A stretch of 64,000 nt of DNA, taken from assembly GCA_016184365.1 (NCBI GenBank), contig JACPCW010000075.1, positions 81,617-145,616 of the forward strand, in the 5' to 3' direction. Below the pieces are notes generated by a model that saw nothing but the letters and a program-made list of their open reading frames with translations, was not told the DNA's origin and searched no databases. Of the stretch, positions 3,735 to 38,964 are shown one piece after another (within the stretch, counting starts at the first letter, position 1; each line of letters starts with the position of its first letter). The DNA is from Candidatus Rokuibacteriota bacterium. GTDB lineage: Bacteria > Methylomirabilota > Methylomirabilia > Rokubacteriales > CSP1-6. Made by a program: the position numbers and the translations under genes.

Positions 3735-4895
3735 ATGGACCGCTACGAGGTGACCGGCGCGCAGTTCGAGCGGTTCGTGCGCGTGACCGGGCATCGGACG
3801 ACTGCGGAGCGCGAGGGGTGGGGGTGGGTGTGGCGGCAAAAGGACGGCGCATGGCAGTCGGTGAAGGTCGATGGGGCCGACTGGGGGAAACCGAACGGTC
3901 CCGGATCCTGGAGCGAAGCGAAGCATCCGGTGGTCCAGGTGTCGTGGCATGACGCGGATGCGTATTGCCGCTGGGCGGGGAAGCGGCTGCCGACCGAGGC
4001 CGAGTGGGAGAAGGCGGCGCGCGGCACGGATGGCCGGCGCTACCCGTGGGGCGACGCGTGGGATGAGACGAGAGTCGGAGACTGGAAGAACGACCGCACC
4101 CATGCCGTCGGCTCAGCGACGCGAGGCGTGAGCCCGTACGACGTGCACGATATGGCGGGGAACGTCTGGGAGTGGGTCGCGGACTGGTTCCACGAGGACT
4201 ATTACACGCATCGCGCGCTCGACCGCTGCCAGGCGCTCATGCGCTGCCATCCGTACGTGCTGAAGTCCGACGTCTCGAAGTTCTTTCCGAGCGTCGACCA
4301 CGAGATCCTCGACGCGCTGCTCACGAAGCGTGTCCGTTGCGCGCGCACGCGGCAGCTGATGCGGTCGATCCTCGCGAGCGGCGCCGGCATTCTTGCCGAC
4401 GAGTACCGGATGACGTGGTTCCCCGGCGACACGCTGCCGAGCCCGCTCGACCGCCCGCGCGGCTTGCCGATCGGCAACCTCACGAGCCAGTTCTGGGCGA
4501 ACGTGTACCTGCACGAGCTGGACGGCTTCGTCGTCCGTCGGCTCGGCCGGGACGCTTACTTGAGATACGTCGACGATTTCCTGGTCTTCGGCCACACCAA
4601 GGCCGAGCTGCACGAGGTGCGAGCCCAGATCGAGGCGTTCCTCGTCGGGCTCCGGCTGACGGTGCATCCGACGAAGACACGCGTCTGCCCCGTCGCCGCC
4701 GGAGTGCCGTTTCTGGGCTTCGTCCTCCGCCCCGGCCGAGTCCGGCTCAAGCGCGAGTCTGTCCGCCGGTTCACCCGCCGGATGCGGCGTGCTCGCCGCG
4801 CGCTCGTCGAGCGCGCGCTGACCGTCGAACGGCTGAGCGCGTCGGTGAGGAGTTGGATCGCGCACGCCGCGTACGGTCAAACCTACCGGCTGTGA
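3735..4895 (+). CDS. chimeric ORF: an FGE/SUMF1-like (C-type lectin fold) fragment fused in frame to a DGR-type reverse transcriptase lacking its N-terminal motifs
   Basis: About 160 N-terminal aa have FGE-fold motifs ([17 protein letters not shown], [34 protein letters not shown], [10 protein letters not shown]). The remainder has RT motifs: [26 protein letters not shown] (the SQ variant typical of DGR RTs), [26 protein letters not shown] and a C-terminal [12 protein letters not shown]. Confidence 0.55.
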
Positions 4896-11742: not shown

Positions 11743-12926
11743 CCGCGTCCTACCGGTGGGTGATCCTCGCGCTCACCATCGTCGCCTTCATGCAGACCCA
11801 CGTGCATCGGCTCGCGTTCGCTCCGCTGATTCCGACCTTCGTCGCCGACATGGGCCTCGGGTACACCGCGGCCGGCACGATCCAGACGGCGTACTTCTGG
11901 ACCTACATGACGGCGCAGCTGCCGATCGGCCTCGCGACCGATCGCTGGGGCGCGCGCCGCGTGATGCTGACGTGCTTCGTGATCCTGATCGTCGGCGGCG
12001 CGTGGTTCGCGGCGAGCGCCAGCTACGCGGCCAGCCTCGTCGCGCGCATGCTCGTCGGCCTCGGCGCCGCGGCGGTGTGGGTGCCCGGCATGCGCCTCAT
12101 GGCGGAATGGTTTCCCGCCGCCGAGCGCGGACGCGCGACGGGCATGATGTCCGCAGGCGGCGGCATCGGCGGGACCGTCGGACTGGTCCTCGTGCCCTGG
12201 CTCGCGACGTTCTGGGGGTGGCGGCTCGCCTACGGCGTGCTCGTCGTTCCCGCCGTGCTGACGTTCGTCCTCATCGCCGTGTTCCTGCGCGGAGGCGAGG
12301 CCACCACAGCGGCGGCCGTGCGACCCGGAGCGCTCCGGCGCGTGCTCGCGTCGCACGCGTTGTGGCCGTTCAACCTGAGCGTGATCTTTTCGTACGGCGC
12401 GTACTTCAGCTTCCTCACGTTCCTGCCGGCGTACCTCGTGAAGTCGCTCGGATTTGGCGCGACGCAGGCGGGGCTCGTCACCGGCCTCATCACCGCCGGC
12501 ACGATCATTTCCTGGCCCGCGGCCGGAGTGCTGAGCGACCGGCTCGGCCGGCGGAAGGCGCTCTTCCTCGCGAGCCAGGGCGTGAGCGTCCTCGTGCCGC
12601 TCGCCTTTGCGTTCGTCGCGCCGCAGGTCGGCATGCCGGCGACGATGGCGATCGCGTTCATCTCGGGCCTGCTCGTGGGCGGCTTGATCCTGCCGTTCGT
12701 GATGATCGTGGAGCTCTTTCCGCGGGAGGACGCGGCCACCGCCTCGGGCGTGGCCAACTCCGCGTGCTTCGTCGGCGGCATCGTCCTGCCGATCGTCTTC
12801 GGCCGCATCGTGGACGTCACCGGAAGCTTCACGATCGCGTTCGTCGTCGCCGCGGCGCTGCAGGCGATCGCGTTCGTCTTCGCCCTCGGCGTGAAGGAAG
12901 CGACGCCGGTGGCGCTCCAACGGTGA
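11739..12926 (+). CDS. MFS transporter (second, tandem)
   Basis: GTG start overlaps the upstream TGA (GTGA). The MFS motifs GRRKALF/DRWGRR and hydrophobic helices are present. Confidence 0.7.
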   Translation: MTASYRWVILALTIVAFMQTHVHRLAFAPLIPTFVADMGLGYTAAGTIQTAYFWTYMTAQLPIGLATDRWGARRVMLTCFVILIVGGAWFAASASYAASLVARMLVGLGAAAVWVPGMRLMAEWFPAAERGRATGMMSAGGGIGGTVGLVLVPWLATFWGWRLAYGVLVVPAVLTFVLIAVFLRGGEATTAAAVRPGALRRVLASHALWPFNLSVIFSYGAYFSFLTFLPAYLVKSLGFGATQAGLVTGLITAGTIISWPAAGVLSDRLGRRKALFLASQGVSVLVPLAFAFVAPQVGMPATMAIAFISGLLVGGLILPFVMIVELFPREDAATASGVANSACFVGGIVLPIVFGRIVDVTGSFTIAFVVAAALQAIAFVFALGVKEATPVALQR

Positions 12927-12997
12927 GCGCGTGGTTGCGCCGGGCGATGGGGCGGTGGTAGCGTGACGTCGCGCCGCCCACATTCACGGAGGAGCCC

Positions 12998-14035
12998 ATG
13001 CCCGCCACGCTGAGCTCGAAGCGCCACCGCGTCGAAGACACCGCCGACCTGATCGAGTTCTGCTTCCAGCAGGGCTGGAGCGACGGCCTGCCGGTCGTGC
13101 CGCCGACGGAAGGTCGCGTGCGCGCGATGCTCGACGCCGTCGAGCTCGCGCCCGAGCGGCAGGTCGGCTACATCGACCACCGCGCTGTCGCGATCACGGC
13201 CGAGAAAGTCGCGATCAACGCCGTCATGGCCGGCTGCACGCCGGAACACATGCCCGTCGTGATCGCGGGCGTCGAGGCGATCGCCGACCCGAAGTGGAGC
13301 TACCACGGTCCCGGCACGTCGACGGGCGGGGCGGGCGTGCTCATGATCGTCAACGGCCCGATCGCCCGCGAGCTCGACATCAACGCCGGAGACAACCTCT
13401 TCGGACCGGGCTGGCGGGCGAACCTGACGATCGGCCGCGCCGTCCGACTGGTGATGCGCAACGTGTGCGGCTCGATGCCGGGTCTGCTCGACCGCGGCAC
13501 GCTCGGTCATCCCGGCAAGCTGTCGTACGTGATCGCGGAGAACGAAGTGGACAGCCCGTGGACGCCGCTGCACGTCGAGCGCGGCTTCCGTCCCGATCAG
13601 AGCGCGGTCACGGTCGTCGCCGCGAACGGCCCGCATCAGTTCTACAACCAGCTGTCGAGCAGCGCCGAGGGCGTGCTGACGACGCTCGCGGACGACATGC
13701 GCATCTCGGGCGGCGTGATGGGGCAGCCGACGTACACGGTCGTGCTCGCCGGCGAGCACATGAACACGATCGCGAAGGACGGCTGGGACAAGAAGCGCAT
13801 CCGCCAGTTCCTCTTCGACCACACGAAGAACACGCACGCGCATCTCAAGCGCACCGGACGGATGTCCGGCGCGATGAAGCCCGGCGACGACGCGGCGATG
13901 CGGCCGCTCGTCGAGACACCGGACGACATCCTCGTCGTGGCGGCCGGAGGGCGCGCCGGAGCGTTCAGCGCCTACATCCCCGGCTGGGGCAGCCGACGAA
14001 ATTCGGAAGCGGTGACAAAGGAGATCAAGCGATGA
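12998..14035 (+). CDS. conserved hypothetical protein, translationally coupled to the UGSC selenoprotein gene
   Basis: 345-aa ORF with an ATGA overlap with the downstream gene. No family recognised by eye. Confidence 0.5.
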   Translation: MPATLSSKRHRVEDTADLIEFCFQQGWSDGLPVVPPTEGRVRAMLDAVELAPERQVGYIDHRAVAITAEKVAINAVMAGCTPEHMPVVIAGVEAIADPKWSYHGPGTSTGGAGVLMIVNGPIARELDINAGDNLFGPGWRANLTIGRAVRLVMRNVCGSMPGLLDRGTLGHPGKLSYVIAENEVDSPWTPLHVERGFRPDQSAVTVVAANGPHQFYNQLSSSAEGVLTTLADDMRISGGVMGQPTYTVVLAGEHMNTIAKDGWDKKRIRQFLFDHTKNTHAHLKRTGRMSGAMKPGDDAAMRPLVETPDDILVVAAGGRAGAFSAYIPGWGSRRNSEAVTKEIKR

Positions 14036-14562
14036 CCGAACTGCTGGATCCCACCACCGGAGCGGCGACGCAGACGATTGCGTTCGCGCCCCGGCCGCAG
14101 GCCCTCGCGGGCAAGCGGATCGCCCTGATCGAGAACACGAAGTTCAACTCGGACCGGCTGCTCGAGAAGATCGGCGCGCTGCTGCGGTCCGAGTACGGCG
14201 CGGCCGACGCGCGGCTCTGGCGGAAGAGGAACGCCAGCGTGCCCGCGCACCAGGAGATCATCGAGGAGGTGCGCAAGACCTGCGACGTCATGGTCGCAGG
14301 CATCGGAGACTGAGGGAGCTGCTCGTCGGGCAGTGTGCTCGACGGAATCCTGCTGGAGAAGGCCGGTGTTCCCTCCGCGTCGATCATCACGGACGTCTTC
14401 GAGGCGACCGGCCGCGCGATGGCCGAGCAGTGGGGACTGCCGTACTACAAGTTCCTGATGATGCCGCACCCGATCGCGAACCTGACCGAGAAGGAGCTCG
14501 ACCAGCGGGCGCGTGAGATCACGCCCGAAGTGGTCAAGCTGATCCTCCAGGGTCAGGCGTAA
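14032..14562 (+). CDS. UGSC-family selenoprotein (in-frame TGA at 14311-14313 read as Sec)
   Basis: ORFs 13294..14313 (C-terminal part MTELLDPTTG…MVAGIGD) and 14335..14562 are in one frame, separated only by TGA plus 7 codons. This gives …GIGD-U-GSCSSG…, the U-G-S-C motif. AAAGGAG lies 8 nt before the ATG, and a hairpin follows the TGA. Confidence 0.6.
14314..14340 (+). other. candidate bacterial SECIS hairpin immediately 3' of the UGA of the UGSC gene
   Basis: GAGCUGC-UCGUCGG-GCAG…GCUC stem-loop with a G-containing apical loop, starting 3 nt after the TGA. Confidence 0.3.
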
Positions 14563-14569
14563 CGCTCGC

Positions 14570-14602
14570 TCGCCGGGGCGCTCTCGCCGAGCGCCCCGGC
14601 GC
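14570..14602 (+). terminator. GC-rich hairpin after the UGSC gene (gccggggcgctc-tcgcc-gagcgccccggc)
   Basis: 12-bp perfect inverted repeat 10 nt after the stop. There is no T-tract; it resembles the middle hairpin of the REP family. Confidence 0.35.
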
Positions 14603-14618
14603 CCGTCACCCCTCCTGG

Positions 14619-15593
14619 ATGTCCTGGCAACCCGCATGGTGGTGTCGCAACCCGCATCTCCAGACGATGTGGGGCCCGATCGTCCGGCGCTCGCGGGTCG
14701 CGCTGCGCCGTGAGCGCTTCGCGATGCGCGACGGCGACTTCGTCGATCTCGACTGGCTGGACGGCCGCGCCGGCGCGCCGCTGCTGCTCGTGCTCCACGG
14801 TCTCGAAGGCTCCTCGCGCTCGCATTACGCCGGCGGCCTCGTGGGGCTCGCCGCGGCTCGCGGCTGGCGGGGCGTCGTGCTGAACTTCCGGTCCTGCTCA
14901 GGCGAGCCGAATCGGCTGCCGCGCTTCTACCACGGCGGCGAGACCGGAGACCTCGACGAGGTCGTGACGGCGCTCGTCGCGCGCGAGCCGGCTGCGGCCA
15001 TCGGCGCCGCCGGCGTGTCGATCGGCGGGAACGTCCTGTTGAAGTGGCTCGGCGAGCGCGGGACGGACGCGCCGAAGTCGCTCGTCGCCGCGGTCGGGAT
15101 CTCCGTGCCGTTCGATCTCGGCGCGTGCGCCCGCGCGCTCGACCGCGGGTTCTCTCGCGTGGTGTACACAGCGAATTTTCTCCGGACGTGCCGCGCGAAG
15201 ATCCGCGAGAAGGCGGTCCGGTATCCGGGATTCGTCGACGTCGCCGCCGCGCTGCGCGCGCGCACGTTCGAGGAATACGACCGCGCCGTCACCGCGCCGC
15301 TGCATGGCTTCGCGGACGAGATCGACTACTGGACGCGCTCGTCGAGCGGGCCATGGCTCGCGCGCATCCGCCGGCCGACGCTGCTGCTCGCGGCGCTCGA
15401 CGACCCGTTCGTGCCCGCCGAGACGCTGCCCGACGTCGCGCGGCTGCCCGAGGACGTGCGGGCGGAGTTCGTGCCGCACGGCGGCCACGCGGGGTTCATC
15501 GACGGGCCGCCATGGCGAGCGTCGTCGTGGGCCGAGCGGCGCGCGACCGCTTTTCTTGCCGAGCGCTTCGCCGCTGTATGCTCACCGGCATGA
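14619..15593 (+). CDS. alpha/beta hydrolase (YheT/ABHD-type)
   Basis: LVLHGLEGSS…GVSIGGN (nucleophile elbow)…HGGHAGF. Confidence 0.7.
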   Translation: MSWQPAWWCRNPHLQTMWGPIVRRSRVALRRERFAMRDGDFVDLDWLDGRAGAPLLLVLHGLEGSSRSHYAGGLVGLAAARGWRGVVLNFRSCSGEPNRLPRFYHGGETGDLDEVVTALVAREPAAAIGAAGVSIGGNVLLKWLGERGTDAPKSLVAAVGISVPFDLGACARALDRGFSRVVYTANFLRTCRAKIREKAVRYPGFVDVAAALRARTFEEYDRAVTAPLHGFADEIDYWTRSSSGPWLARIRRPTLLLAALDDPFVPAETLPDVARLPEDVRAEFVPHGGHAGFIDGPPWRASSWAERRATAFLAERFAAVCSPA

Positions 15594-27741: not shown

Positions 27742-28413
27742 TTGGACCGGACAAGACGTCTTCTTCTCGTCGGTGTCTTCGTAGTGATGCTCGGAGCGGG
27801 GGCAGGTTTGCTCGCTTACTGGTCATTGGCCCCGATGTCGCCAGCCGACTTGCCCGCTCGTGACGCGGCGCGCACGCCGACGGCTGCGCCTATGGCACCC
27901 GTCATTACTCTGCCTACCCGACCGAGCGTGCCGCCTGAGCGCCGATTTTCCGTCGACGACGCGATGAAGGAGCTAGACCTGATCCGCCCGTCGCGGCCGA
28001 AACTTGCACACGATTTCGCGCTACCCACGCCAGCGGGGCGGACGTTCCGGCTGTCCGAACATCGCGGGAAGACCGTGTTCGTGAACTTCTGGGCGACGTG
28101 GTGCCCGCCGTGCCGCGAGGAGATGCCCGCGATGGAGCGTCTGTGGAAGCAGCACCGCGAGCGCGGCTTCGTGATCGTCGCCGTGTCCGTGGACTCCGAT
28201 ACGAAGCTCGTCGTGCCGTTCGTGAACAAGGGCCGGTTCACGTTTCCGATCGTGCTCGATCCGAAGCTCGAGGCCGCGAATGCCTATGGCGTCCGCGCGC
28301 TGCCGTCGAGCTTCATCGTGGATCGCCAGGGGAACATGACGGCGCTCGCGCTCGGGCCGCGCCAGTGGGACAACAACGCGGCCCACTCGCTGATCGAAGC
28401 GCTGGTGCGCTGA
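27742..28413 (+). CDS. TlpA/ResA-family thiol:disulfide oxidoreductase (thioredoxin fold, membrane-anchored)
   Basis: VFVNFWATWCPPCREEMP. Proposed TTG start before the N-terminal anchor helix; ATG 27787 is an alternative. Confidence 0.7.
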   Translation: MDRTRRLLLVGVFVVMLGAGAGLLAYWSLAPMSPADLPARDAARTPTAAPMAPVITLPTRPSVPPERRFSVDDAMKELDLIRPSRPKLAHDFALPTPAGRTFRLSEHRGKTVFVNFWATWCPPCREEMPAMERLWKQHRERGFVIVAVSVDSDTKLVVPFVNKGRFTFPIVLDPKLEAANAYGVRALPSSFIVDRQGNMTALALGPRQWDNNAAHSLIEALVR

Positions 28414-28414
28414 C

Positions 28415-29152
28415 GTGGGCCAGCCCGTCGGCGTCCTCGTCGCGTTCACCGCGGGACTCTTCTCGTTCCTGTCGCCGTGCGTGCTCCCGCTGTTCCCGTC
28501 CTATCTCTCGTTCGTGACCGGCATGTCGGTGTCGGATCTGTCCGCCGACCTCACGAGCGCGACGCGCCGCCGGGTCGTGCTGCACTCGCTCGCGTTCATC
28601 TTCGGCTTCTCGGTCGTCTTCGTGTCGCTCGGCGCGTCGTTCAGCGTCGCCGGACAGTTCCTGCTCGACTACCGCGAGTGGATCCGACGCATCGGCGGCA
28701 TCCTGATCATCGTCTTCGGTCTCTACATCGCCGGAGTCCTCAGAATCGGATTCCTCGCCCGTACGCAGCAGTGGCAGCTGCGCGAGAAGCCCGCGGGCTA
28801 CCTCGGCTCGCTCGCCGTCGGCCTCACGTTCGCGATCGGCTGGACGCCGTGTGTCGGACCGATCCTCGGCGCGATCCTATCGCTCGCGAGCACCGCCGAC
28901 AACGTCGGCCGCGGCATCGGGCTGCTCATCGCGTATTCCGCGGGACTCGGCGTGCCGTTCCTGCTGTCGTCGCTCGCGCTCGGGTCGTTCCTGAAGTTCT
29001 TCCGCCGGTACCGGCCGTTCATCCCGATCGTGGAGCGCGGCGCGGGCGTGCTGCTCGTGATCGTCGGCGTGCTCGTCTTCACGAACTACTACCTCGTGCT
29101 GAACGCCTGGGCGATCTCGTTGACGCCCGAGTGGCTGCTGAAGCGTCTGTGA
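28415..29152 (+). CDS. ccdA: cytochrome c-type biogenesis protein CcdA (DsbD-like electron transporter)
   Basis: FLSPCVLPLFP…GWTPCVGPILG, the two conserved Cys motifs. GTG start 2 nt after the tlpA stop. Confidence 0.8.
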   Translation: MGQPVGVLVAFTAGLFSFLSPCVLPLFPSYLSFVTGMSVSDLSADLTSATRRRVVLHSLAFIFGFSVVFVSLGASFSVAGQFLLDYREWIRRIGGILIIVFGLYIAGVLRIGFLARTQQWQLREKPAGYLGSLAVGLTFAIGWTPCVGPILGAILSLASTADNVGRGIGLLIAYSAGLGVPFLLSSLALGSFLKFFRRYRPFIPIVERGAGVLLVIVGVLVFTNYYLVLNAWAISLTPEWLLKRL

Positions 29153-31964: not shown

Positions 31965-32047
31965 GGCGTACAATCCGCCCCGATGGATGGGCGAAGCCGC
32001 AGCACGACGCGTAGCCGCAGGCGGAGCGGGTGCGAGGCGAGTCTGTG

Positions 32048-32965
32048 ATGGACCTGCGCCGACTCGAAATCTTCGCCAAGGTCGCCGAGCTCGGCAGTTT
32101 CTCGCGCGCGGCCGAAGCGCTGTATCTCACGCAGCCGACCGTCTCCGAACACATCCGCGCGCTCGAAGACGAGCTCGGCGTGCAGCTGCTCGACCGGCTC
32201 GGGCGCGGCGCCGCGCCGACGCGCGCCGGCCAGCTCTTCCTCGGCTACGCGCACCGTCTGCTCGGTCTCGCCCGCGAAGCGCGTCAGGCGATCGACCAGT
32301 TCCAGGGCCGCATGAGCGGCGAGCTCGTCGTCGGCGGCAGCACGATTCCCGGTGAGTACGTGCTGCCGGCCCTGATCGGCGAGTTCAAGGGCAAGTACCC
32401 CGACATCCTCATCACGCTGGTGATCGGCGACAGCCGCCAGGTGATCGACTGGGTCGAGGAAGGCCGCGTCGAAGTCGGCGTCGTCGGCGCCCGCCCGACC
32501 GCCCGCACGCTCGAGTCACGGGAGCTCATGTCCGACGAGCTCGTCGTCGTCGTGCCGGCCGCGCACCCGTGGGCCGAGCGGGACGACGTCACGCTCGCCG
32601 AGCTGCAGGAACAGCCGCTCATCGTGCGCGAGCACGGGTCCGGCTCGCGCGACGCGATGGAGCGCGCGCTCGCCGAGGCCGGGCTCGATCTCGACGCGTT
32701 CCGCATCGCCGGCGAGATCGGCTCGACGCAGGCGATCAAGCAGGGCGTGCGCGCCGGCGTCGGTGTCGCGCTCATCTCGAAGCGCGCGGTGGAGGACGAG
32801 TGCCGCGCGCGGCTCCTCCGCTGCGTGAAGATCCGCGATTTCCGGGTGTCGCGCGCGTTCCATCTCGTCACGCATCGCGACCGCAGCCGGTCGCCGCTGG
32901 CGGTCGCGTTCCTCGAGTTCATCGAATCCCGGCTGCCGGGCGCGGCATCCCAATCAGCACGATGA
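32048..32965 (+). CDS. LysR-family transcriptional regulator
   Basis: MDLRRLEIFAKVAELGSFSRAAEALYLTQPTVSEHIRALE is an HTH LysR N-terminus. Confidence 0.8.
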   Translation: MDLRRLEIFAKVAELGSFSRAAEALYLTQPTVSEHIRALEDELGVQLLDRLGRGAAPTRAGQLFLGYAHRLLGLAREARQAIDQFQGRMSGELVVGGSTIPGEYVLPALIGEFKGKYPDILITLVIGDSRQVIDWVEEGRVEVGVVGARPTARTLESRELMSDELVVVVPAAHPWAERDDVTLAELQEQPLIVREHGSGSRDAMERALAEAGLDLDAFRIAGEIGSTQAIKQGVRAGVGVALISKRAVEDECRARLLRCVKIRDFRVSRAFHLVTHRDRSRSPLAVAFLEFIESRLPGAASQSAR

Positions 32966-34020
32966 CGGGAAAGGACATCCGCCTCACGTCGTACGCGTCC
33001 TGCGCCGGCTGAGCGTCCAAGATGGCTCCTGGAGATCTCCAGGAGGTGCTCGCGGTGCTCAAGCCGGCGGACCCCGCCGCGCATGAAGCATTGCTCGTCG
33101 GGCTCGGCCGCGCGGACGACGCGGCGGTGTATCGGCTGGCGCCCGATCTCGCGATCGTCGAAACGGTGGACTTCTTTCCGCCGGTCGTCGACGACGCGTA
33201 CACGTGGGGCGCGATCGCGGCGGCCAACGCGATGTCGGACGTCTACGCGATGGGCGGGCAGGTGCTCTTCGCCCTCGCGATCGCCGGCTTTCCGCGTGAG
33301 CTGCCGAAGGCCGTCATCAGGGAAGTCTTCCGCGGCGGCGCGGAGAAGGTCGCCGAGGCCGGCGGCGTCATCGCCGGCGGTCACACCGTCGTCGACAACG
33401 AGCCGAAGTACGGTCTCTGCGTCACCGGGCGCGTGCATCCCGACCGCGTGCTGACGAAGGGCGGCCTGCGGGCCGGCGACCGGTTGTTCCTGTCGAAGCC
33501 GCTCGGCACGGGGGTCATCACGACGGGCGCGAAGAACGACGTCGCGAGCGCCGACGTCCTCGACGGCGCCGTGCAGAGCATGCTGCGGCTCAACCGCGTG
33601 GCGGCGGAGGTTGCGTGCGAACGCGGCGCGCATGGCGCGACGGACATCACCGGCTTCGGTCTGCTCGGCCATCTCGGCGAGATGGTGGAAGCCTCGGGTG
33701 TCGGCGCCATCATCCGAGCCTCGCGGCTGCCCGTTCTGCCAGGCGCGCTCGCGCTCGCGGAGCAGGGGCAGTTCAGCGGCGGGATGAAACGGAACCGGCG
33801 CCACGTCGATGCGGTGTTCGGTCCGCGGCTCACCGTCGACGCGTCGGTGCCCGAGGTCGTCGCCTCGCTGGCCGCCGAATCCGAGACGTCGGGCGGGCTG
33901 CTGTTTTCCGTCGCGCCCGCCGAAGCGTCACGGGTGCTCGACGACTTCGCGAAACGCGGCGAGGAGTGCTTCGAGATCGGCGAAGTCATCGCCGATCGCG
34001 CCATCCGCCTCCTCGCCTGA
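32962..34020 (+). CDS. selD: selenide, water dikinase (selenophosphate synthetase), Sec-containing form with UGA at codon 17
   Basis: From ATG 32962 the frame reads MTGKDIRLTSYASCAG-TGA-ASK and continues, with no frame change, into ORF 33022..34020, which has a SelD/AIR-synthase-like body. The TGA falls in the conserved Cys/Sec position. ATGA overlap with the lysR stop. Confidence 0.7.
33025..33044 (+). other. candidate SECIS hairpin for selD (perfect palindrome CTCCTGGA-GATC-TCCAGGAG)
   Basis: 8-bp stem and 4-nt GAUC loop, 12 nt downstream of the in-frame UGA. Confidence 0.4.
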
Positions 34021-34077
34021 CGCCTTCCCTTTCGCACAGTCGGGCGCCGGCCTATCAGCAGCGGGGATGAGCATCGG

Positions 34078-34110
34078 GAATCCCGATCGTTCGCAGCGGA
34101 GAATCCCGAT
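34078..34110 (+). promoter_or_regulatory. direct repeat GAATCCCGAT x2 (23-bp spacing) upstream of phnD; candidate response-regulator (Pho-type) box
   Basis: Two identical 10-mers about 60-90 nt upstream of the phnD start. Confidence 0.3.
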
Positions 34111-34166
34111 ACGCTTGGCCCGTATCTAAAGGCACATTGCGCAATCCACTGTCCTGGGGGCATCGA

Positions 34167-35027
34167 ATGCGTCGCCTTCTTGCGCTGGTCCTGGTGTTCT
34201 GTGCGGTCGCAGCTCCGGCCGTCGTCTCCGCGGACAAGCCGGACGTGCTCCGGATCTCCGCCATTCCGGACGAGAACCCGAACGAGCTGATGCGGATCTA
34301 CACGCCGTTCGCCGAGTACCTCGCGAAGGAGCTCGGCATGAAGGTGCAGTTCACGCCTGTCGTCGATTACGCGGCGACCGTCGAAGGGCTCGCCGCGAAG
34401 AAGCTCGACCTCGTGTGGTACGGCGGGTTCACGTCGGTTCAGGCGGTGAAGCGCACGAGCGGCAGCGCGAAGCGGCTCATCCTTCGTCAGGAAGACGCCG
34501 AGTTCAAATCGGTCTTCGTGGCGAAGCCGGGCTCCGGCATCAGGACGCTCGCCGACCTGAAGGGCAAGAGCTTCGCGTTCGGCTCGGTGTCCTCGACGTC
34601 GGGACACCTGATGCCGCGCTACTTCCTGCTGAAGTCCGGTGTCGCGCCCGATCGTGAATTCAAGCGGATCGCGTTCTCCGGCGCGCACGACGCGACGGCG
34701 CTCTGGGTGGAATCCGGAAAGGTGGACGCCGGCGCGCTCAACTTCCTCGTGTGGGAGAAGCTCGTCCAGCAGAAGAAGGTCGACGTCGGCAAGGTCGACG
34801 TGTTCTACACCACGCCGCCGTACGTCGACTACGTCTGGACCGCGCGTGGCGATCTGGACCGCGGCGTTACCGACAAGCTCGTCGCCGCGTTCCTGAAGCT
34901 CGACTACGCGAATGCCGAGCATCGGAGGCTCCTCGACCTCCACCGGACGAAGAAGTACATCCGCGCCAACGATGCCGACTGGAAGAGCATCGAAGAGGCG
35001 GCCGTCGAGGCCGGACTCCTGAAGTAA
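34167..35027 (+). CDS. phnD: phosphonate ABC transporter substrate-binding protein
   Basis: Signal peptide MRRLLALVLVFCAVAAPAVVSA followed by a PhnD-like body (…YGGFTSVQA…SGH…). The ORF reports an in-frame TTG at 34137. Confidence 0.75.
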   Translation: MRRLLALVLVFCAVAAPAVVSADKPDVLRISAIPDENPNELMRIYTPFAEYLAKELGMKVQFTPVVDYAATVEGLAAKKLDLVWYGGFTSVQAVKRTSGSAKRLILRQEDAEFKSVFVAKPGSGIRTLADLKGKSFAFGSVSSTSGHLMPRYFLLKSGVAPDREFKRIAFSGAHDATALWVESGKVDAGALNFLVWEKLVQQKKVDVGKVDVFYTTPPYVDYVWTARGDLDRGVTDKLVAAFLKLDYANAEHRRLLDLHRTKKYIRANDADWKSIEEAAVEAGLLK

Positions 35028-35036
35028 GGGTTCGCG

Positions 35037-35861
35037 GTGTACCGGCTTCGCGAGATCACGAAGGTCTTCGGCCGCGAGACGTCCGCCCTCGACGGCGTCA
35101 CGCTGCACGTGGCCCCGGGCGAGCACGTCGCGGTCATCGGCCCGAGCGGGGCGGGGAAGACCACGCTGTTCCGGCTGCTGAACCTGGCGCTGCGGCCGAC
35201 GTCCGGCTCGCTGCGCTTCGAAGGCGCCGACGTCGCGACCCTGTCCGACGCCGCGCTGCGGCAGGCACGGACGCGCATCGGCACGATCTACCAGCAGCAG
35301 AACCTCGTCGGCCGCCTGCGTGTCGTCCACAACGTGCTCGCCGGCCATCTCGGCCGGTGGTCGACGGCGGCGGCGCTCGCGTCGCTCGTCCGGCCGCGCG
35401 AGGTCGAGACGGCGAGCGCCGCGCTCGCGCGCGTGGGCATCGGCGAGAAGCTCTACGCGCGAACCGACGAGCTCTCCGGCGGCCAGCAGCAGCGGGTCGC
35501 GATCGCGCGGGTGCTCGTGCAGGATCCGGACGTCGTGCTCGCCGACGAGCCGGTGTCGTCGGTCGATCCCTCGCTCGCGGTGACGCTCATCACGCTCCTC
35601 CGCGATCTCTCGGACGAATCGCGGAAGACGCTGCTCGTGAACCTGCACAGCGTCGACCTGGCGCTGTCGTTCTTCCCTCGCATCGTCGGGGTGCGCGCCG
35701 GCCGTGTCGCGTTCGATCTCCCGCCGGACCGCGTCACGGTGGATCTGCTCGAAGCGCTGTATGCCGGCGATCGCGACGACGAGGCGCAGCTCGAACGCCT
35801 GAGAGATGGCTACGATCCCTTCGGACGCGCCTGTCGCCCGCTCACTGGCTTCCGACCGTAA
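35037..35861 (+). CDS. phnC: phosphonate ABC transporter ATP-binding protein
   Basis: Walker A GPSGAGKTT, signature LSGGQQQRV, Walker B VVLADEP. Confidence 0.8.
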   Translation: MYRLREITKVFGRETSALDGVTLHVAPGEHVAVIGPSGAGKTTLFRLLNLALRPTSGSLRFEGADVATLSDAALRQARTRIGTIYQQQNLVGRLRVVHNVLAGHLGRWSTAAALASLVRPREVETASAALARVGIGEKLYARTDELSGGQQQRVAIARVLVQDPDVVLADEPVSSVDPSLAVTLITLLRDLSDESRKTLLVNLHSVDLALSFFPRIVGVRAGRVAFDLPPDRVTVDLLEALYAGDRDDEAQLERLRDGYDPFGRACRPLTGFRP

Positions 35862-36672
35862 GTCGGGTTTTCCCTGGCTGCTCGCGGTTGCGTTCGCGCT
35901 GACGCTCGTCGGCTCGCTGCGCGTCGCGGAGGTCGATCCGCGGCTGCTCGTCGAGCGTGACGCGCTCGCCAACGTCGGCCGGTTCGTGGCCGGCGCGTGG
36001 CCGCCGCGCGTCTCCGCCGAGTTCCTCGGTCTCATGGCGCGTCCCGTCGCCGAGACGATCCAGATCTCCGTCACCGGAACGCTCTTCGCCGTCCTGATCG
36101 GGTTCCCGCTCGGGATCCTCGCGACGTCGACGCTCATGTGGCGCGGCGTGCTGCACGAGCGCCGCGTGCAGCGCCGGCGCTGGCTGCTCGGGCTGCCGGT
36201 CTACGCGGTCGCGCGCGCCCTGCTGTCGGTGTTCCGTGCGATCCCCGAATACGTCTGGGCCTTCATGTTCGTGCGCGCCGTCGGGCTGGGTCCGTTTCCC
36301 GGGGTCCTCGCGATCGGCATCGCGTACGGCGGCATGCTCGGCAAGGTCTATTCCGAGATTCTCGAGAGCGTCGACCCGCGACCGCTCGAGACGTTGCAGG
36401 CCGCGGGCGCCTCGCGCATGGCCGTCGTGTTCTATGGCCTCGTCCCGCAGGCGCTGCCGACGTTCGTGTCGTACACGCTGTACCGCTGGGAGTGCGCGAT
36501 CCGTGCCTCGGCGATCCTCGGCTTCGTCGGCGCCGGCGGGCTCGGGCAGCAGATCGAGCTGTCGATGCGGATGTTCCAGTTCGACGAGGTCCTGACGCTG
36601 CTCGCGACGCTCTTCGTCCTGGTCGCGCTCGTGGATTTCATCAGCGGTCGCCTGCGCGCGAGGCTCCTGTGA
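35806..36672 (+). CDS. phnE: phosphonate ABC transporter permease
   Basis: PhnE-like membrane protein. The start is uncertain because it overlaps the phnC 3' end. Confidence 0.7.
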   Translation: MATIPSDAPVARSLASDRKSGFPWLLAVAFALTLVGSLRVAEVDPRLLVERDALANVGRFVAGAWPPRVSAEFLGLMARPVAETIQISVTGTLFAVLIGFPLGILATSTLMWRGVLHERRVQRRRWLLGLPVYAVARALLSVFRAIPEYVWAFMFVRAVGLGPFPGVLAIGIAYGGMLGKVYSEILESVDPRPLETLQAAGASRMAVVFYGLVPQALPTFVSYTLYRWECAIRASAILGFVGAGGLGQQIELSMRMFQFDEVLTLLATLFVLVALVDFISGRLRARLL

Positions 36673-37860: not shown

Positions 37861-37911
37861 TATATGTAGACGTCCAAACGCGACCGTCAGATTCGCGTAT
37901 TCTGCGGTTGG

Positions 37912-38964
37912 ATGGCTCCCTCTGTGGCGCTGCTGACGCCGTTCGCATTTCCGTCGCTTCGGGGGAATGCGGTGACGGTGGAGCGCATCGCCCGCGGCCT
38001 CGCCGAGCGTGGCGTCGCGCTGCGCGTGTGGGACCTGTCGGCGACGGGGGAGTCGCGCGTCGCCGAGGAGGTCGATGCCGGGCGCCCGGCGCTCATTCAC
38101 GCGTTCCACGCCTGGCGCGTCGGGCCGCTCGCGCTGCGCGTGGCGCGACGGCTCGAGGTCCCGCTGATCGTGACGCTGACCGGCACCGACGCGAACCACG
38201 ATCTCTTCGATCCGGACCGCGCCGCCGTCGTCCGCCGCGTGCTCGAGGGGGCGGCGGCCATCGTCGTCTTTCACGACTCGGTCGGCGCGCGCGTCGCGGC
38301 CGCGCTGCCGGACGTCGCCGCGCGCCTCGTCGTCATCCCGCAGGCCGCCACGCTCCGGACGGAACCGTACGAGCTCGCCGCGCGTTGGGACCTGCCGGAG
38401 GACCGCGTCCTGTTCCTGTTCGCGGGAGGCATCCGACCGGTCAAGCGTCCGCGCTTTCCGTTGCGGCCGTTCGCGCAGCTCGTGGAACGCCACCCGCGCG
38501 CGCGTCTCGCGTACGCCGGACCGGTGCTCGATCGGATCGAGGGCGAGGCGCTGATGCGCGAGCTGGAGGGCCGCGGATGGGCGCGATACCTCGGCGCCGT
38601 GCCGCACGGGCAGATGGCGTCATTGTTGCGGGCAGCCGACGTCGTCGTGAACTGCTCCGAGTCGGAAGGTGGGATGGCGAACGCAATTCTCGAGGCGTTC
38701 GCCGTCGGTCGCGCCATGCTGGCCGCCGATATCCCCGGCAATCGCTCACTCGTTCAGCACGACGTGACGGGCCTGCTGTTTTCTGATGCAGGAACTTTCT
38801 TGGCCGGCGCCGAGCGGCTGACGACGGATTCCGCGCTGCGGGACCGTCTGGGACGCGCCGGACGTCAGCGTGTGGAGCGGGATCACCCACCCGGGCGCGA
38901 AATCGACGACTATCTGGCCCTGTATCGCCGTTTCGTTGCCGTGCCGGCGGGCCGCGCGTGTTGA
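37912..38964 (+). CDS. glycosyltransferase family 4 (GT-B)
   Basis: A C-terminal EGGMANAILEAFAVGRAMLAADIPG (E-x7-E type) motif. Confidence 0.75.
   Translation: MAPSVALLTPFAFPSLRGNAVTVERIARGLAERGVALRVWDLSATGESRVAEEVDAGRPALIHAFHAWRVGPLALRVARRLEVPLIVTLTGTDANHDLFDPDRAAVVRRVLEGAAAIVVFHDSVGARVAAALPDVAARLVVIPQAATLRTEPYELAARWDLPEDRVLFLFAGGIRPVKRPRFPLRPFAQLVERHPRARLAYAGPVLDRIEGEALMRELEGRGWARYLGAVPHGQMASLLRAADVVVNCSESEGGMANAILEAFAVGRAMLAADIPGNRSLVQHDVTGLLFSDAGTFLAGAERLTTDSALRDRLGRAGRQRVERDHPPGREIDDYLALYRRFVAVPAGRAC

What the first reader, a model, noticed from the sequence alone, without database searches (positions are those of the whole stretch)
14032..14562. UGSC-family selenoprotein: in-frame TGA giving the exact D-U-G-S-C motif, with a downstream hairpin
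Two annotated ORFs (…MVAGIGD and a following ORF in the same frame) are one 176-codon gene if TGA 14311-14313 is read as selenocysteine. The local sequence becomes GIGD-U-GSCSSG. A stem-loop with a G-containing apical loop begins 3 nt after the UGA. The gene has a canonical AAAGGAG RBS. Its ATGA overlap with the upstream 345-aa hypothetical gene implies co-translation with an uncharacterised partner. Together with the Sec-containing selD, this marks a selenium-using organism whose selenoproteome would be mis-annotated by standard gene callers.
Basis: partly seen in the sequence, partly recalled or inferred. Interest (0 to 1): 0.7.

Follow-up and report, generated by a model that had tools for sequence, protein, structure and literature searches.

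The report
UGSC selenoprotein gene with conserved partner
The in-frame TGA at 14311 is very probably a selenocysteine codon in a member of the already known UGSC selenoprotein family, whose function is unknown; it is almost always encoded next to, or fused with, a large uncharacterised partner protein, which gives a way to study its function.

Summary
ATG 14032 to TAA 14562 is one 176-codon gene interrupted only by TGA 14311-14313, giving GIGD-U-GSCSSG. With U replaced by C, the product passes the curated cut-off of NCBIfam NF041046 'UGSC family (seleno)protein' and matches Pfam PF24696 end to end. Seventy-seven full-length homologues carry CGSC. All 81 Rokubacteria/Methylomirabilota loci examined carry TGA. 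A 10-bp hairpin with a GUG loop (14323-14345) meets all four published bacterial SECIS criteria, and its eight codons are invariant in 79 of 81 loci and vary at one codon in the other two, while neighbouring synonymous sites vary freely. A Sec-containing selD sits at 32962-34020 in a selenium-metabolism island. selA, selB and selC are not in the window.

So this is a new member of a family known since 2006-2008, not a new kind of system. The added findings concern context. The upstream 345-aa gene belongs to a large family with no Pfam or NCBIfam model. It lies next to 91 of 97 UGSC domains examined and is fused in other organisms to UGSC, thioredoxin-fold, ferredoxin-thioredoxin-reductase-like or small CxxC modules. 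The UGSC model is flavodoxin-like, not thioredoxin-like. The likely role, a selenol/thiol redox subunit of a two-part enzyme, is inferred, not shown.

The parts
12998..14035 (+). Partner gene, 345 aa. No Pfam or NCBIfam family. Cys80 in the NAVMAGC motif is nearly invariant. Its stop TGA (14033-14035) overlaps the UGSC start codon.
   Evidence: ORF. No family hit. It is 100% identical to an NCBI 'hypothetical protein HYU41_09370 [Candidatus Rokubacteria bacterium]'. The family has 5312 representatives at the 50% clustering level.
14017..14023 (+). Shine-Dalgarno-like AAAGGAG, 8 nt upstream of the UGSC start codon and inside the end of the partner gene.
   Evidence: Read directly from the sequence.
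14032..14562 (+). UGSC-family selenoprotein gene: 176 codons plus TAA, with Sec at codon 94.
   Evidence: Translation. NF041046 scores 142.8 bits against a cut-off of 125. PF24696 scores 203 bits over profile positions 1-170 of 172.
14311..14322 (+). U-G-S-C motif: TGA (Sec94) GGG AGC TGC (Cys97).
   Evidence: Sequence. G95, S96 and C97 are invariant in 74 family members. The first codon is TGA in 81 of 81 Sec-type loci and TGC or TGT in three Cys-type loci.
14323..14345 (+). SECIS-like hairpin: 5' arm UCGUCGGGCA (14323-14332), loop GUG (14333-14335), 3' arm UGCUCGACGG (14336-14345).
   Evidence: Fold. Consensus fold of 77 distinct sequences, and -14.1 kcal/mol for the 23-nt element. Codons +3 to +10 after the UGA are codon-invariant across 81 loci, except at codon +4 in 2 loci. 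The element meets the published bacterial SECIS constraints (PMC13188914).
32962..34020 (+). selD (selenophosphate synthetase) with in-frame TGA at 33010-33012 and its own downstream hairpin. It shows that the organism decodes UGA as Sec.
   Evidence: Translation and sequence. Hairpin fold has a z-score of -2.7. The flanking genes are a selenium-metabolism LysR regulator and a putative selenate ABC transporter.

Best explanation
TGA 14311-14313 is decoded as selenocysteine, so 14032-14562 encodes one 176-residue protein of the UGSC (seleno)protein family. SelB would be recruited by the hairpin at 14323-14345, whose loop places G and U at positions 23 and 24 counted from the U of UGA.

The gene is translationally coupled to the upstream 345-aa gene. 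The two products most likely form a two-subunit enzyme. UGSC would be a flavodoxin-like domain with Sec94 at the N-terminus of helix 3 and Cys97 one turn later. It would act as the selenol/thiol redox module, cycling between selenol/thiol and selenenylsulfide. The partner would bind the substrate and carry a reactive Cys80.

Shown here: family membership, Cys/Sec interchange, RNA-level constraint on the hairpin, gene adjacency and domain fusions.

Inferred: the redox mechanism, physical complex formation, and a link to catabolism of a carboxylate or acyl-CoA. That link is seen only in Cys-type proteobacterial loci.

The confidence of 0.85 is for the identity: a Sec-decoded UGSC-family gene paired with the partner. 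For the redox-subunit mechanism alone I would give about 0.5.
For: **Family membership**
- NF041046 scores 142.8 bits against a cut-off of 125. PF24696 matches full length at 203 bits.

**Cys/Sec interchange**
- 77 full-length homologues carry CGSC. About 30 clusters are truncated exactly at ...GIGD.
- TGA occupies this codon in 81 of 81 distinct Rokubacteria/Methylomirabilota loci. It is TGC or TGT in the three Cys-type loci held at that point.

**Translation continues past the TGA**
- Amino acids downstream of the TGA are conserved while their synonymous sites vary.

**SECIS**
- Codons +3 to +10 (TGC TCG TCG GGC AGT GTG CTC GAC) are codon-invariant, except 2 of 81 loci at codon +4. This includes AGT, an A/T-ending codon in a gene with GC3 above 0.9. 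Other four-fold sites carry 1.0-1.6 bits of synonymous entropy.
- The consensus fold is this hairpin alone. The 23-nt element folds at -14.1 kcal/mol. Cys-type genes use other codons and have no such hairpin.
- All four constraints of the bacterial SECIS model are met: loop of 3-9 nt, stem of 4-16 bp, a G in the first two loop positions, 16-37 nt spacing (here 19), and MFE of -7.5 kcal/mol or lower (PMC13188914).

**Selenium use by the organism**
- A Sec-containing selD lies beside a selenium-associated LysR regulator and a putative selenate ABC transporter.

**Partner coupling**
- A partner domain lies next to 91 of 97 UGSC domains. The 4-nt overlap occurs in 58 loci.
- The pairing is kept in a paralogous pair in L087 (27% and 37% identity, reversed gene order) and in a second Sec-containing pair in at least eight Rokubacteria loci.

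**Fusions**
- Of 58 long partner-family representatives, 32 carry a UGSC domain, 5 Redoxin/AhpC-TSA, 2 the ferredoxin-thioredoxin reductase catalytic chain and 2 Thioredoxin_8.
- The fused modules carry redox motifs, and one protein is a fusion with the small CxxC protein.

**Structure**
- The UGSC model was built on the Cys homologue P0001 (pLDDT 89.4). It has a beta-alpha x5 topology with the motif Cys at the start of helix 95-110.
Against: - No selA, selB or tRNA-Sec is in the window or in any held locus, so the decoding machinery is inferred from the Sec-containing selD.
- The hairpin is almost invariant, so there is no covariation support, only synonymous-site conservation. The 81 loci are phylogenetically related.
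- No Rfam family matches the region.
- The redox mechanism is an inference from motifs and fusion partners. Some fused UGSC domains have lost one or both Cys (P0330, P0341, P0407).
- A metal- or cluster-binding role for U94, C97 and C80 is not excluded.
Confidence: 0.85

Rival explanations
1. TGA 14311 is a genuine stop codon. The locus would encode a 93-aa protein, plus either a separately initiated 75-aa protein from GTG 14335 or a pseudogene remnant.
For: Mechanical ORF calling gives exactly these two pieces. Many database entries are such 96-aa fragments. TGA is used as an ordinary stop 280 nt upstream, at 14033-14035, for the partner gene.
Against: The seven codons between the TGA and GTG 14335 (GSCSSGS) are invariant family residues. 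Sequence on both sides of the TGA aligns to a single-domain profile. Cys homologues are single polypeptides. A TGA kept in 81 of 81 loci, with purifying selection downstream, does not fit a decaying pseudogene.
Confidence: 0.03
2. The UGA is read through, but not as Sec. It could be read as Trp, Cys or Gly through a variant genetic code or near-cognate suppression.
For: One database homologue shows W and one shows R at this position (P0070, P0073).
Against: TGA terminates the adjacent partner gene, so it is a stop codon in this genome. A SECIS-type hairpin is held invariant at synonymous sites only in the TGA-type genes. selD in the same window has the same TGA-plus-hairpin layout. The W is most simply a code-4 translation of TGA, and the R a single-base variant or a base-calling error.
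Confidence: 0.03
3. Sec is incorporated, but U94 and C97, perhaps with partner Cys80, are ligands of a metal or iron-sulfur centre in a hydro-lyase-type enzyme, not a selenol/thiol redox couple.
Against: TM-scores are only 0.26. The profile comparison with E. coli FumA gives a probability of 0.1. The other fusion partners are thioredoxin-fold CPTC/CPTS modules, typical of dithiol exchange. To my knowledge, UxxC/CxxC at a helix N-terminus with Sec/Cys interchange is the usual pattern of redox selenoproteins.
Confidence: 0.12

Closest known systems
UGSC-containing protein / UGSC family (seleno)protein (NCBIfam NF041046, Pfam PF24696). First noted in Hyphomonas neptunium and in marine metagenomes.
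   Same: It has the same profile match above the curated cut-off, the same U/C-G-S-C motif, and the same preference for Sec over Cys in environmental bacteria. The literature reports 255 Sec against 21 Cys forms in the GOS data and lists the function as unknown (PMC2398784; PMC1976440; PMC13188914).
'UGSC/Unknown_1' fusion selenoprotein of the GOS study (PMC2398784, Figure S1A)
   Same: Here the partner domain is found fused C-terminally to UGSC domains, including forms truncated just after the Sec codon. This fits a UGSC protein fused to a conserved unknown domain.
   Different: In the window the two are separate, overlapping genes in the order partner then UGSC. I could not verify that Unknown_1 is this partner family, because the figure is held only as an image.
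Selenoprotein B subunits of D-proline and glycine reductase (PrdB/GrdB, Pfam PF07355)
   Same: Both have a UxxC-type motif (table in PMC2398784). To my knowledge, PrdB and GrdB also work together with a separately encoded substrate-binding subunit.
   Different: No sequence relationship was detected. No member of the UGSC alignment hits PF07355 even at E up to 5. The partner is not a PrdA/GrdE-type protein by any profile.
Reductases recycled by fused or adjacent thioredoxin-fold modules, such as Msr-Trx or PAPS reductase-type systems, and ferredoxin-thioredoxin reductase acting on a target disulfide
   Same: The partner domain is found joined alternately to UGSC, Redoxin/AhpC-TSA, Thioredoxin_8, ferredoxin-thioredoxin-reductase-B-like and small CxxC modules. 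It has one nearly invariant Cys.
   Different: This is an analogy of architecture only. The partner has no detectable homology to any known reductase, and its substrate is unknown.

Membership tests
UGSC family (seleno)protein (NF041046 / PF24696) | Score above the curated family cut-off over the full length | tested here: met
   NF041046 scores 142.8 bits against a cut-off of 125, over profile positions 2-146 of 147. PF24696 scores 203.4 bits against a cut-off of 25, over positions 1-170 of 172. The query had U replaced by C.
UGSC family (seleno)protein (NF041046 / PF24696) | U/C-G-S-C motif at the aligned position | tested here: met
   The window reads GIGD-U-GSCSSG. G95, S96 and C97 are invariant, and C94 is at least 90% conserved, in 74 aligned members.
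Bacterial selenoprotein gene (general criteria) | In-frame UGA aligned with Cys in homologues | tested here: met
   77 homologues carry CGSC. The codon is TGA in 81 of 81 Rokubacteria-type loci and TGC or TGT in three Cys-type loci.
Bacterial selenoprotein gene (general criteria) | Bacterial SECIS: 3-9 nt loop, 4-16 bp stem, G in the first two loop positions, 16-37 nt from the UGA, MFE of -7.5 kcal/mol or lower | tested here: met
   The loop is GUG (or A-GUG-U if the closing pair opens), the stem is 10 bp, the spacing is 19 nt and the energy is -14.1 kcal/mol. The criteria are from PMC13188914. The hairpin codons are frozen at synonymous sites in 81 loci.
Bacterial selenoprotein gene (general criteria) | Sec machinery (selA, selB, selC, selD) in the genome | tested here: inconclusive
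   selD is present and itself contains Sec. No selA, selB or tRNA-Sec is in the 64-kb window or in the held loci.
Bacterial selenoprotein gene (general criteria) | Selenium actually incorporated into the protein | not testable with these tools
   This needs 75Se labelling or mass spectrometry.
Thioredoxin-fold oxidoreductases (the fold suggested for UGSC in the literature) | Thioredoxin fold with the CxxC after beta-1 | tested here: not met
PrdB/GrdB selenoprotein B (PF07355) | Profile match to the GRDB family | tested here: not met
   None of the 73 UGSC members hits PF07355 at E up to 5.
Class I (Fe-S) fumarate hydratase, considered for the partner | Sequence or profile homology and a global fold match | tested here: not met

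The most novel reading that the evidence does not exclude
UGSC proteins are never stand-alone redox proteins. They would be the selenol/thiol subunit of a widespread, unrecognised two-component enzyme. Its catalytic subunit would be the 345-aa partner family, which has no Pfam or NCBIfam model and no close solved fold. In Cys-type proteobacteria this enzyme would act in an acyl-CoA or carboxylate catabolic pathway, together with an extra small CxxC protein. That would assign a first biochemical context to a selenoprotein family the GOS study ranks among the major ones in its samples and most frequent in its non-marine samples, whose function is still unknown.
Probability: 0.5. Interest if true: 0.6.

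Novelty: new member of a known kind. Interest (0 to 1): 0.33.

Why it matters
The gene itself is a routine, correctly recognised member of a known selenoprotein family. Its main practical value is as an annotation fix: public records split it, frameshift it or mistranslate it.

The wider value lies in the context. UGSC is among the major selenoprotein families in the GOS aquatic metagenomes and still has no known function. The near-obligate pairing and repeated fusion with one large uncharacterised protein family suggest where to look. So does the presence of Cys-type versions of the pair in Advenella kashmirensis and Paraburkholderia sediminicola, and in Advenella it sits among acyl-CoA metabolism genes.

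Tried and rejected
- **Rfam:** no hit at gathering threshold over the whole window. No SECIS family appeared at E up to 10 around the site; the only hit was a chance sRNA match on the opposite strand.
- **PDB by sequence:** nothing meaningful for either protein.
- **Remote Pfam relatives at E up to 5:** none for UGSC. For the partner there was only a sub-threshold SfsA_N match in 10 of 54 members, which I regard as noise.
- **Class I fumarate hydratase as a homologue of the partner:** Foldseek hinted at it, but TM 0.26 and an hhalign probability of 0.1 led me to drop it.
- **AlphaFold database search:** not available on the machine.
- **Source contig:** looking it up through the partner protein found nothing on record, so the flanks beyond the window could not be searched for selA, selB or selC.
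- **tRNA-Sec:** ARAGORN on all held loci found none.
- **GOS 'Unknown_1' domain:** I could not check whether it is the partner family, because the figure is an image.
- **Outer helix:** the helix starting at the UGA in the window's own fold is not in the consensus fold of related loci.
- **Gene neighbourhood in Rokubacteria:** an alpha/beta hydrolase lies downstream in 48 loci, a 493-aa protein cluster after it in 36 loci, and a 283-aa membrane-protein cluster upstream in 45 loci. The window also has transporter-like ORFs upstream that I did not scan. This gave no clear functional clue and may only reflect relatedness.
Full report
**1. The observation**

Reading 12900-14800 and listing ORFs confirms the layout.
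- A 345-codon ORF runs from 12998 to 14035.
- An ATG at 14032 overlaps that ORF's TGA stop (ATGA).
- AAAGGAG lies at 14017-14023, 8 nt upstream of the ATG.
- There is an in-frame TGA at 14311-14313, and the frame stays open to TAA at 14560-14562.

Translation gives 176 sense codons with the local peptide ...CDVMVAGIGD*GSCSSGSVLDG.... The window is 69% G+C. In a scan for TGA codons flanked on both sides by coding-like third-position G+C, 14311 was the only hit in the 64 kb. The filter required at least 15 codons upstream and 40 downstream, and the selD TGA did not pass it.

**2. Identity**

With U written as C, the product matches two curated models.
- NCBIfam NF041046 'UGSC family (seleno)protein': 142.8 bits against a cut-off of 125.
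- Pfam PF24696 'UGSC family': 203 bits over profile positions 1-170 of 172. One domain therefore spans the TGA.

A search of 5.8 billion proteins returned 129 relatives.
- 77 are full-length proteins of about 176-197 aa with CGSC at the aligned position.
- About 30 clusters are roughly 96-aa fragments ending exactly at ...VAGIGD.
- A few are calls that shift frame around the stop codon, or carry W or R at the U position. I read these as gene-caller or translation artefacts at a TGA.

A scan of one genome per GTDB species found 249 relatives. The best 80 loci are nearly all Rokubacteria/Methylomirabilota. The codon at the motif is TGA in all 81 distinct Sec-type sequences, including the window, and TGC or TGT in three Cys-type loci. 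This is the usual Cys/UGA signature of a selenoprotein gene.

The upstream protein is 100% identical to an NCBI entry from a Candidatus Rokubacteria MAG on a 228-kb contig, which places the window.

**3. SECIS**

In the window's own fold, a 10-bp hairpin (UCGUCGGGCA / GUG / UGCUCGACGG, 14323-14345) sits inside a weaker outer helix. Only the hairpin appears in the consensus fold of 77 distinct sequences. On its own it folds at -14.1 kcal/mol.

There is no covariation, because the element hardly varies. That lack of variation is informative in itself.
- Across 81 loci, codons +3 to +10 after the UGA (TGC TCG TCG GGC AGT GTG CTC GAC) have zero synonymous entropy. The only exception is 2 of 81 loci at codon +4.
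- These codons include AGT, an A/T-ending codon in a gene whose GC3 is above 0.9.
- Four-fold degenerate codons on either side carry 1.0-1.6 bits.
- The Cys-type genes use different codons there (for example TCT TCT GGC ACC GTA CTT) and have no comparable hairpin, folding at -5.8 and -7.0 kcal/mol.

The hairpin meets every constraint of the published bacterial SECIS model (PMC13188914, read).
- The loop is 3-9 nt.
- The stem is 4-16 bp.
- A G occupies the first two loop positions, and the A-GUG-U reading fits the N1-G-[G|U]-N-N2 pattern.
- The spacing from the UGA is 16-37 nt (here 19).
- The MFE is -7.5 kcal/mol or lower.

Counted from the U of UGA, the loop G and U are at positions 23 and 24. 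From my own knowledge these are the positions of the SelB-contacting G23 and U24 of E. coli fdhF. I did not verify this with a tool.

The amino acids after the UGA are conserved while their synonymous sites vary, so translation continues in this frame.

**4. Selenium use by the organism**

It has an in-frame TGA at 33010-33012, reading SCAG-U-ASK. An 8-bp hairpin with a GAUC loop follows it.

Its neighbours are selenium-related.
- A 'selenium metabolism-associated LysR family regulator' (NF040786, 309 bits, cut-off 250).
- A 'putative selenate ABC transporter substrate-binding protein' (TIGR04553, 334 bits, cut-off 250).
- An ABC ATPase and a permease.

No tRNA gene, selA or selB is in the window. 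No tRNA-Sec is in any held locus. The rest of the genome could not be reached.

**5. What is known**

'UGSC-containing protein' has been listed as a selenoprotein family since 2006-2008.
- It was noted in Hyphomonas neptunium and in ocean metagenomes (PMC1976440).
[quoted passage not shown] It was the most frequently used family in non-marine samples. [quoted passage not shown]
- A 2026 review still lists its function as uncharacterised (PMC13188914).

The core finding is therefore a new member of a known family.

**6. The partner**

The 345-aa upstream protein has no NCBIfam or Pfam family and no PDB relative by sequence. It nevertheless belongs to a large family.
- 7963 of the 8000 candidates scored in the word-indexed search had E below 1e-3.
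- 5312 representatives at the 50% clustering level were found in the exhaustive search, 1271 of them below 1e-30.
- It is more conserved than UGSC itself: 65% against 58-60% identity between the Rokubacteria window and Advenella.

In the 87 held loci, 91 of 97 UGSC domains have a partner domain within 250 nt on the same strand. Of the 81 loci where the junction could be scored, 58 share the 4-nt ATGA/GTGA overlap. The pairing survives paralogy.
- L087 has a second pair, UGSC2 (HCGSC) followed by partner2, at 27% and 37% identity and in reversed gene order.
- At least eight Rokubacteria loci have a four-gene cluster: UGSC-b(Sec) - partner-b - partner-a - UGSC-a(Sec).
- The window has only one pair.

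Some partner-family representatives are fusions. Of 58 that are at least 395 aa long, the fused domains are:
- UGSC in 32;
- Redoxin/AhpC-TSA in 5;
- the ferredoxin-thioredoxin reductase catalytic chain in 2;
- Thioredoxin_8 in 2.

Inspection of the sequences shows:
- CGSC or CGNC motifs in several UGSC fusions;
- post-TGA halves of UGSC at the N-terminus of many others, which I read as Sec-type fusions;
- CPTC or CPTS motifs in the thioredoxin-like fusions;
- CPC...CPC...CHC in the reductase-like one;
- one fusion (P0312) to the small CxxC protein described below.

Across 135 diverse members, only one Cys (Cys80, in NAVMAGC) is nearly invariant, alongside several Gly, Asn and Arg residues.

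**7. Structures**

The partner model has pLDDT 81.7 and pTM 0.84. It has no convincing solved relative.
- Foldseek's best hits are class I fumarate hydratases at E about 1e-4, but with TM 0.26 and rmsd 17 A. 'Toblerone-fold' cyclic amide hydrolases come next.
- A profile comparison with E. coli FumA is negative, with a probability of 0.1.

**8. Genomic context**

In the Cys-type loci, the pair is always followed by an 82-85-aa protein with an AC(E/T/H)(D/E)CLVPK motif. These loci are:
- Advenella kashmirensis (L001);
- an unnamed 5.3-Mb contig (L002, L003);
- loci encoding a protein NCBI labels Burkholderiales bacterium (L084, L085);
- L086-L088, of unknown taxon.

The cassette lies among the following genes:
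- acyl-CoA dehydrogenases, including a 734-750-aa double one;
- acyl-CoA synthetase;
- family I and family III CoA-transferases;
- enoyl-CoA hydratase;
- TctC;
- a GntR/FCD regulator.

The small protein is absent from the window and from every Sec-type locus.

In Rokubacteria the recurrent neighbours are an alpha/beta hydrolase downstream (48 loci; in the window at 14619-15593), then a 493-aa protein cluster (36 loci), with a 283-aa membrane-protein cluster upstream (45 loci). These give no clear functional clue.

**9. Mechanism**

Shown here:
- family membership and Cys/Sec interchange;
- RNA-level constraint on the hairpin;
- translationally coupled gene pairs;
- recurrent fusion of the partner to thiol-redox modules.

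Inferred:
- Sec94 and Cys97, at a helix N-terminus, form a selenol/thiol to selenenylsulfide couple.
- This couple exchanges with the partner's Cys80 or with a partner-bound substrate, so that UGSC is the redox subunit of a two-part enzyme.
- The proteobacterial context suggests a carboxylate or acyl-CoA substrate.

The main alternative, at about 0.12, is that the three Cys/Sec residues ligate a metal or Fe-S centre in a hydro-lyase-like enzyme. A true stop codon, or non-Sec read-through, is unlikely at about 0.03 each.

**10. Verdict**

The gene is a UGSC-family selenoprotein with a good SECIS element in a selenium-using Rokubacteria genome. This is already a known kind of gene, so its intrinsic interest is modest. 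The useful additions are three:
- the near-obligate pairing with a large partner family that has no Pfam or NCBIfam model;
- the non-thioredoxin fold of UGSC;
- Cys-type versions of the pair in named proteobacterial species, where the function could be tested.

Noticed in passing
window 32015-36672: A selenium-utilisation island. It holds a selenium-metabolism-associated LysR regulator (32015-32965) and a Sec-containing selD (32962-34020, TGA 33010-33012) with an 8-bp hairpin and GAUC loop about 14 nt after the UGA. It also holds a putative selenate ABC transporter substrate-binding protein (34071-35027), an ATPase (35028-35861) and a permease (35803-36672).
   Followed up: partly
window 14571-14601: A perfect 13-bp G+C-rich inverted repeat (CGCCGGGGCGCUC / loop UCGCC / GAGCGCCCCGGCG). 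The surrounding 58 nt fold at -34.2 kcal/mol. It starts 9 nt after the UGSC stop codon and ends 17 nt before the start of the next gene, and has no U-tract. It may be a terminator-like or mRNA-stabilising hairpin closing the two-gene operon.
   Followed up: partly
L010, L013, L017, L019, L022, L027, L029, L036 (about 1-6 kb in each locus): Other Rokubacteria carry a four-gene cluster: UGSC-b - partner-b - partner-a - UGSC-a. UGSC-b is a second Sec-containing paralogue with the motif SAD-U-GSCTSWS. The window has only the 'a' pair.
   Followed up: partly
L001 8569-8826; L002 8531-8779; L084 8546-8803; L086 8531-8779; L087 5063-5320: An 82-85-aa protein with no Pfam family and a conserved AC(E/T/H)(D/E)CLVPK motif follows every Cys-type UGSC gene. 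It is absent from all Sec-type loci. In P0312 it is fused to the N-terminus of a partner domain.
   Followed up: partly
proteins P0401, P0402, P0411, P0446, P0439, P0354, P0370: Thioredoxin-like/partner fusions share a second conserved motif, P-G-C-G/A-x-K/R, between the thioredoxin-like domain and the partner domain. Its role is unknown.
   Followed up: no
proteins P0070, P0073, P0074, P0075, P0109: Public protein records of this family show W or R at the Sec position, or a stretch translated out of frame around the TGA. This illustrates how gene callers mis-handle the Sec codon.
   Followed up: partly
window 3735-4895 (+): A 386-aa ORF with a C-terminal part containing an ...[11 protein letters not shown]... 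motif that resembles reverse transcriptases. The N-terminal part looked to me like a formylglycine-generating-enzyme/sulfatase-modifying domain. This was read from the translation only and not checked against any profile.
   Followed up: no
window 37870-38964 (+) and 28394-29152 (+): Two below-cut-off matches near the selenium island. A family 4 glycosyltransferase scores 374 bits for the GPMC type (cut-off 400) and 108 bits for the selenoneine selenosugar synthase SenB (cut-off 300). A DsbD-like membrane protein has a weak match to the selenoprotein TsoB.
   Followed up: no
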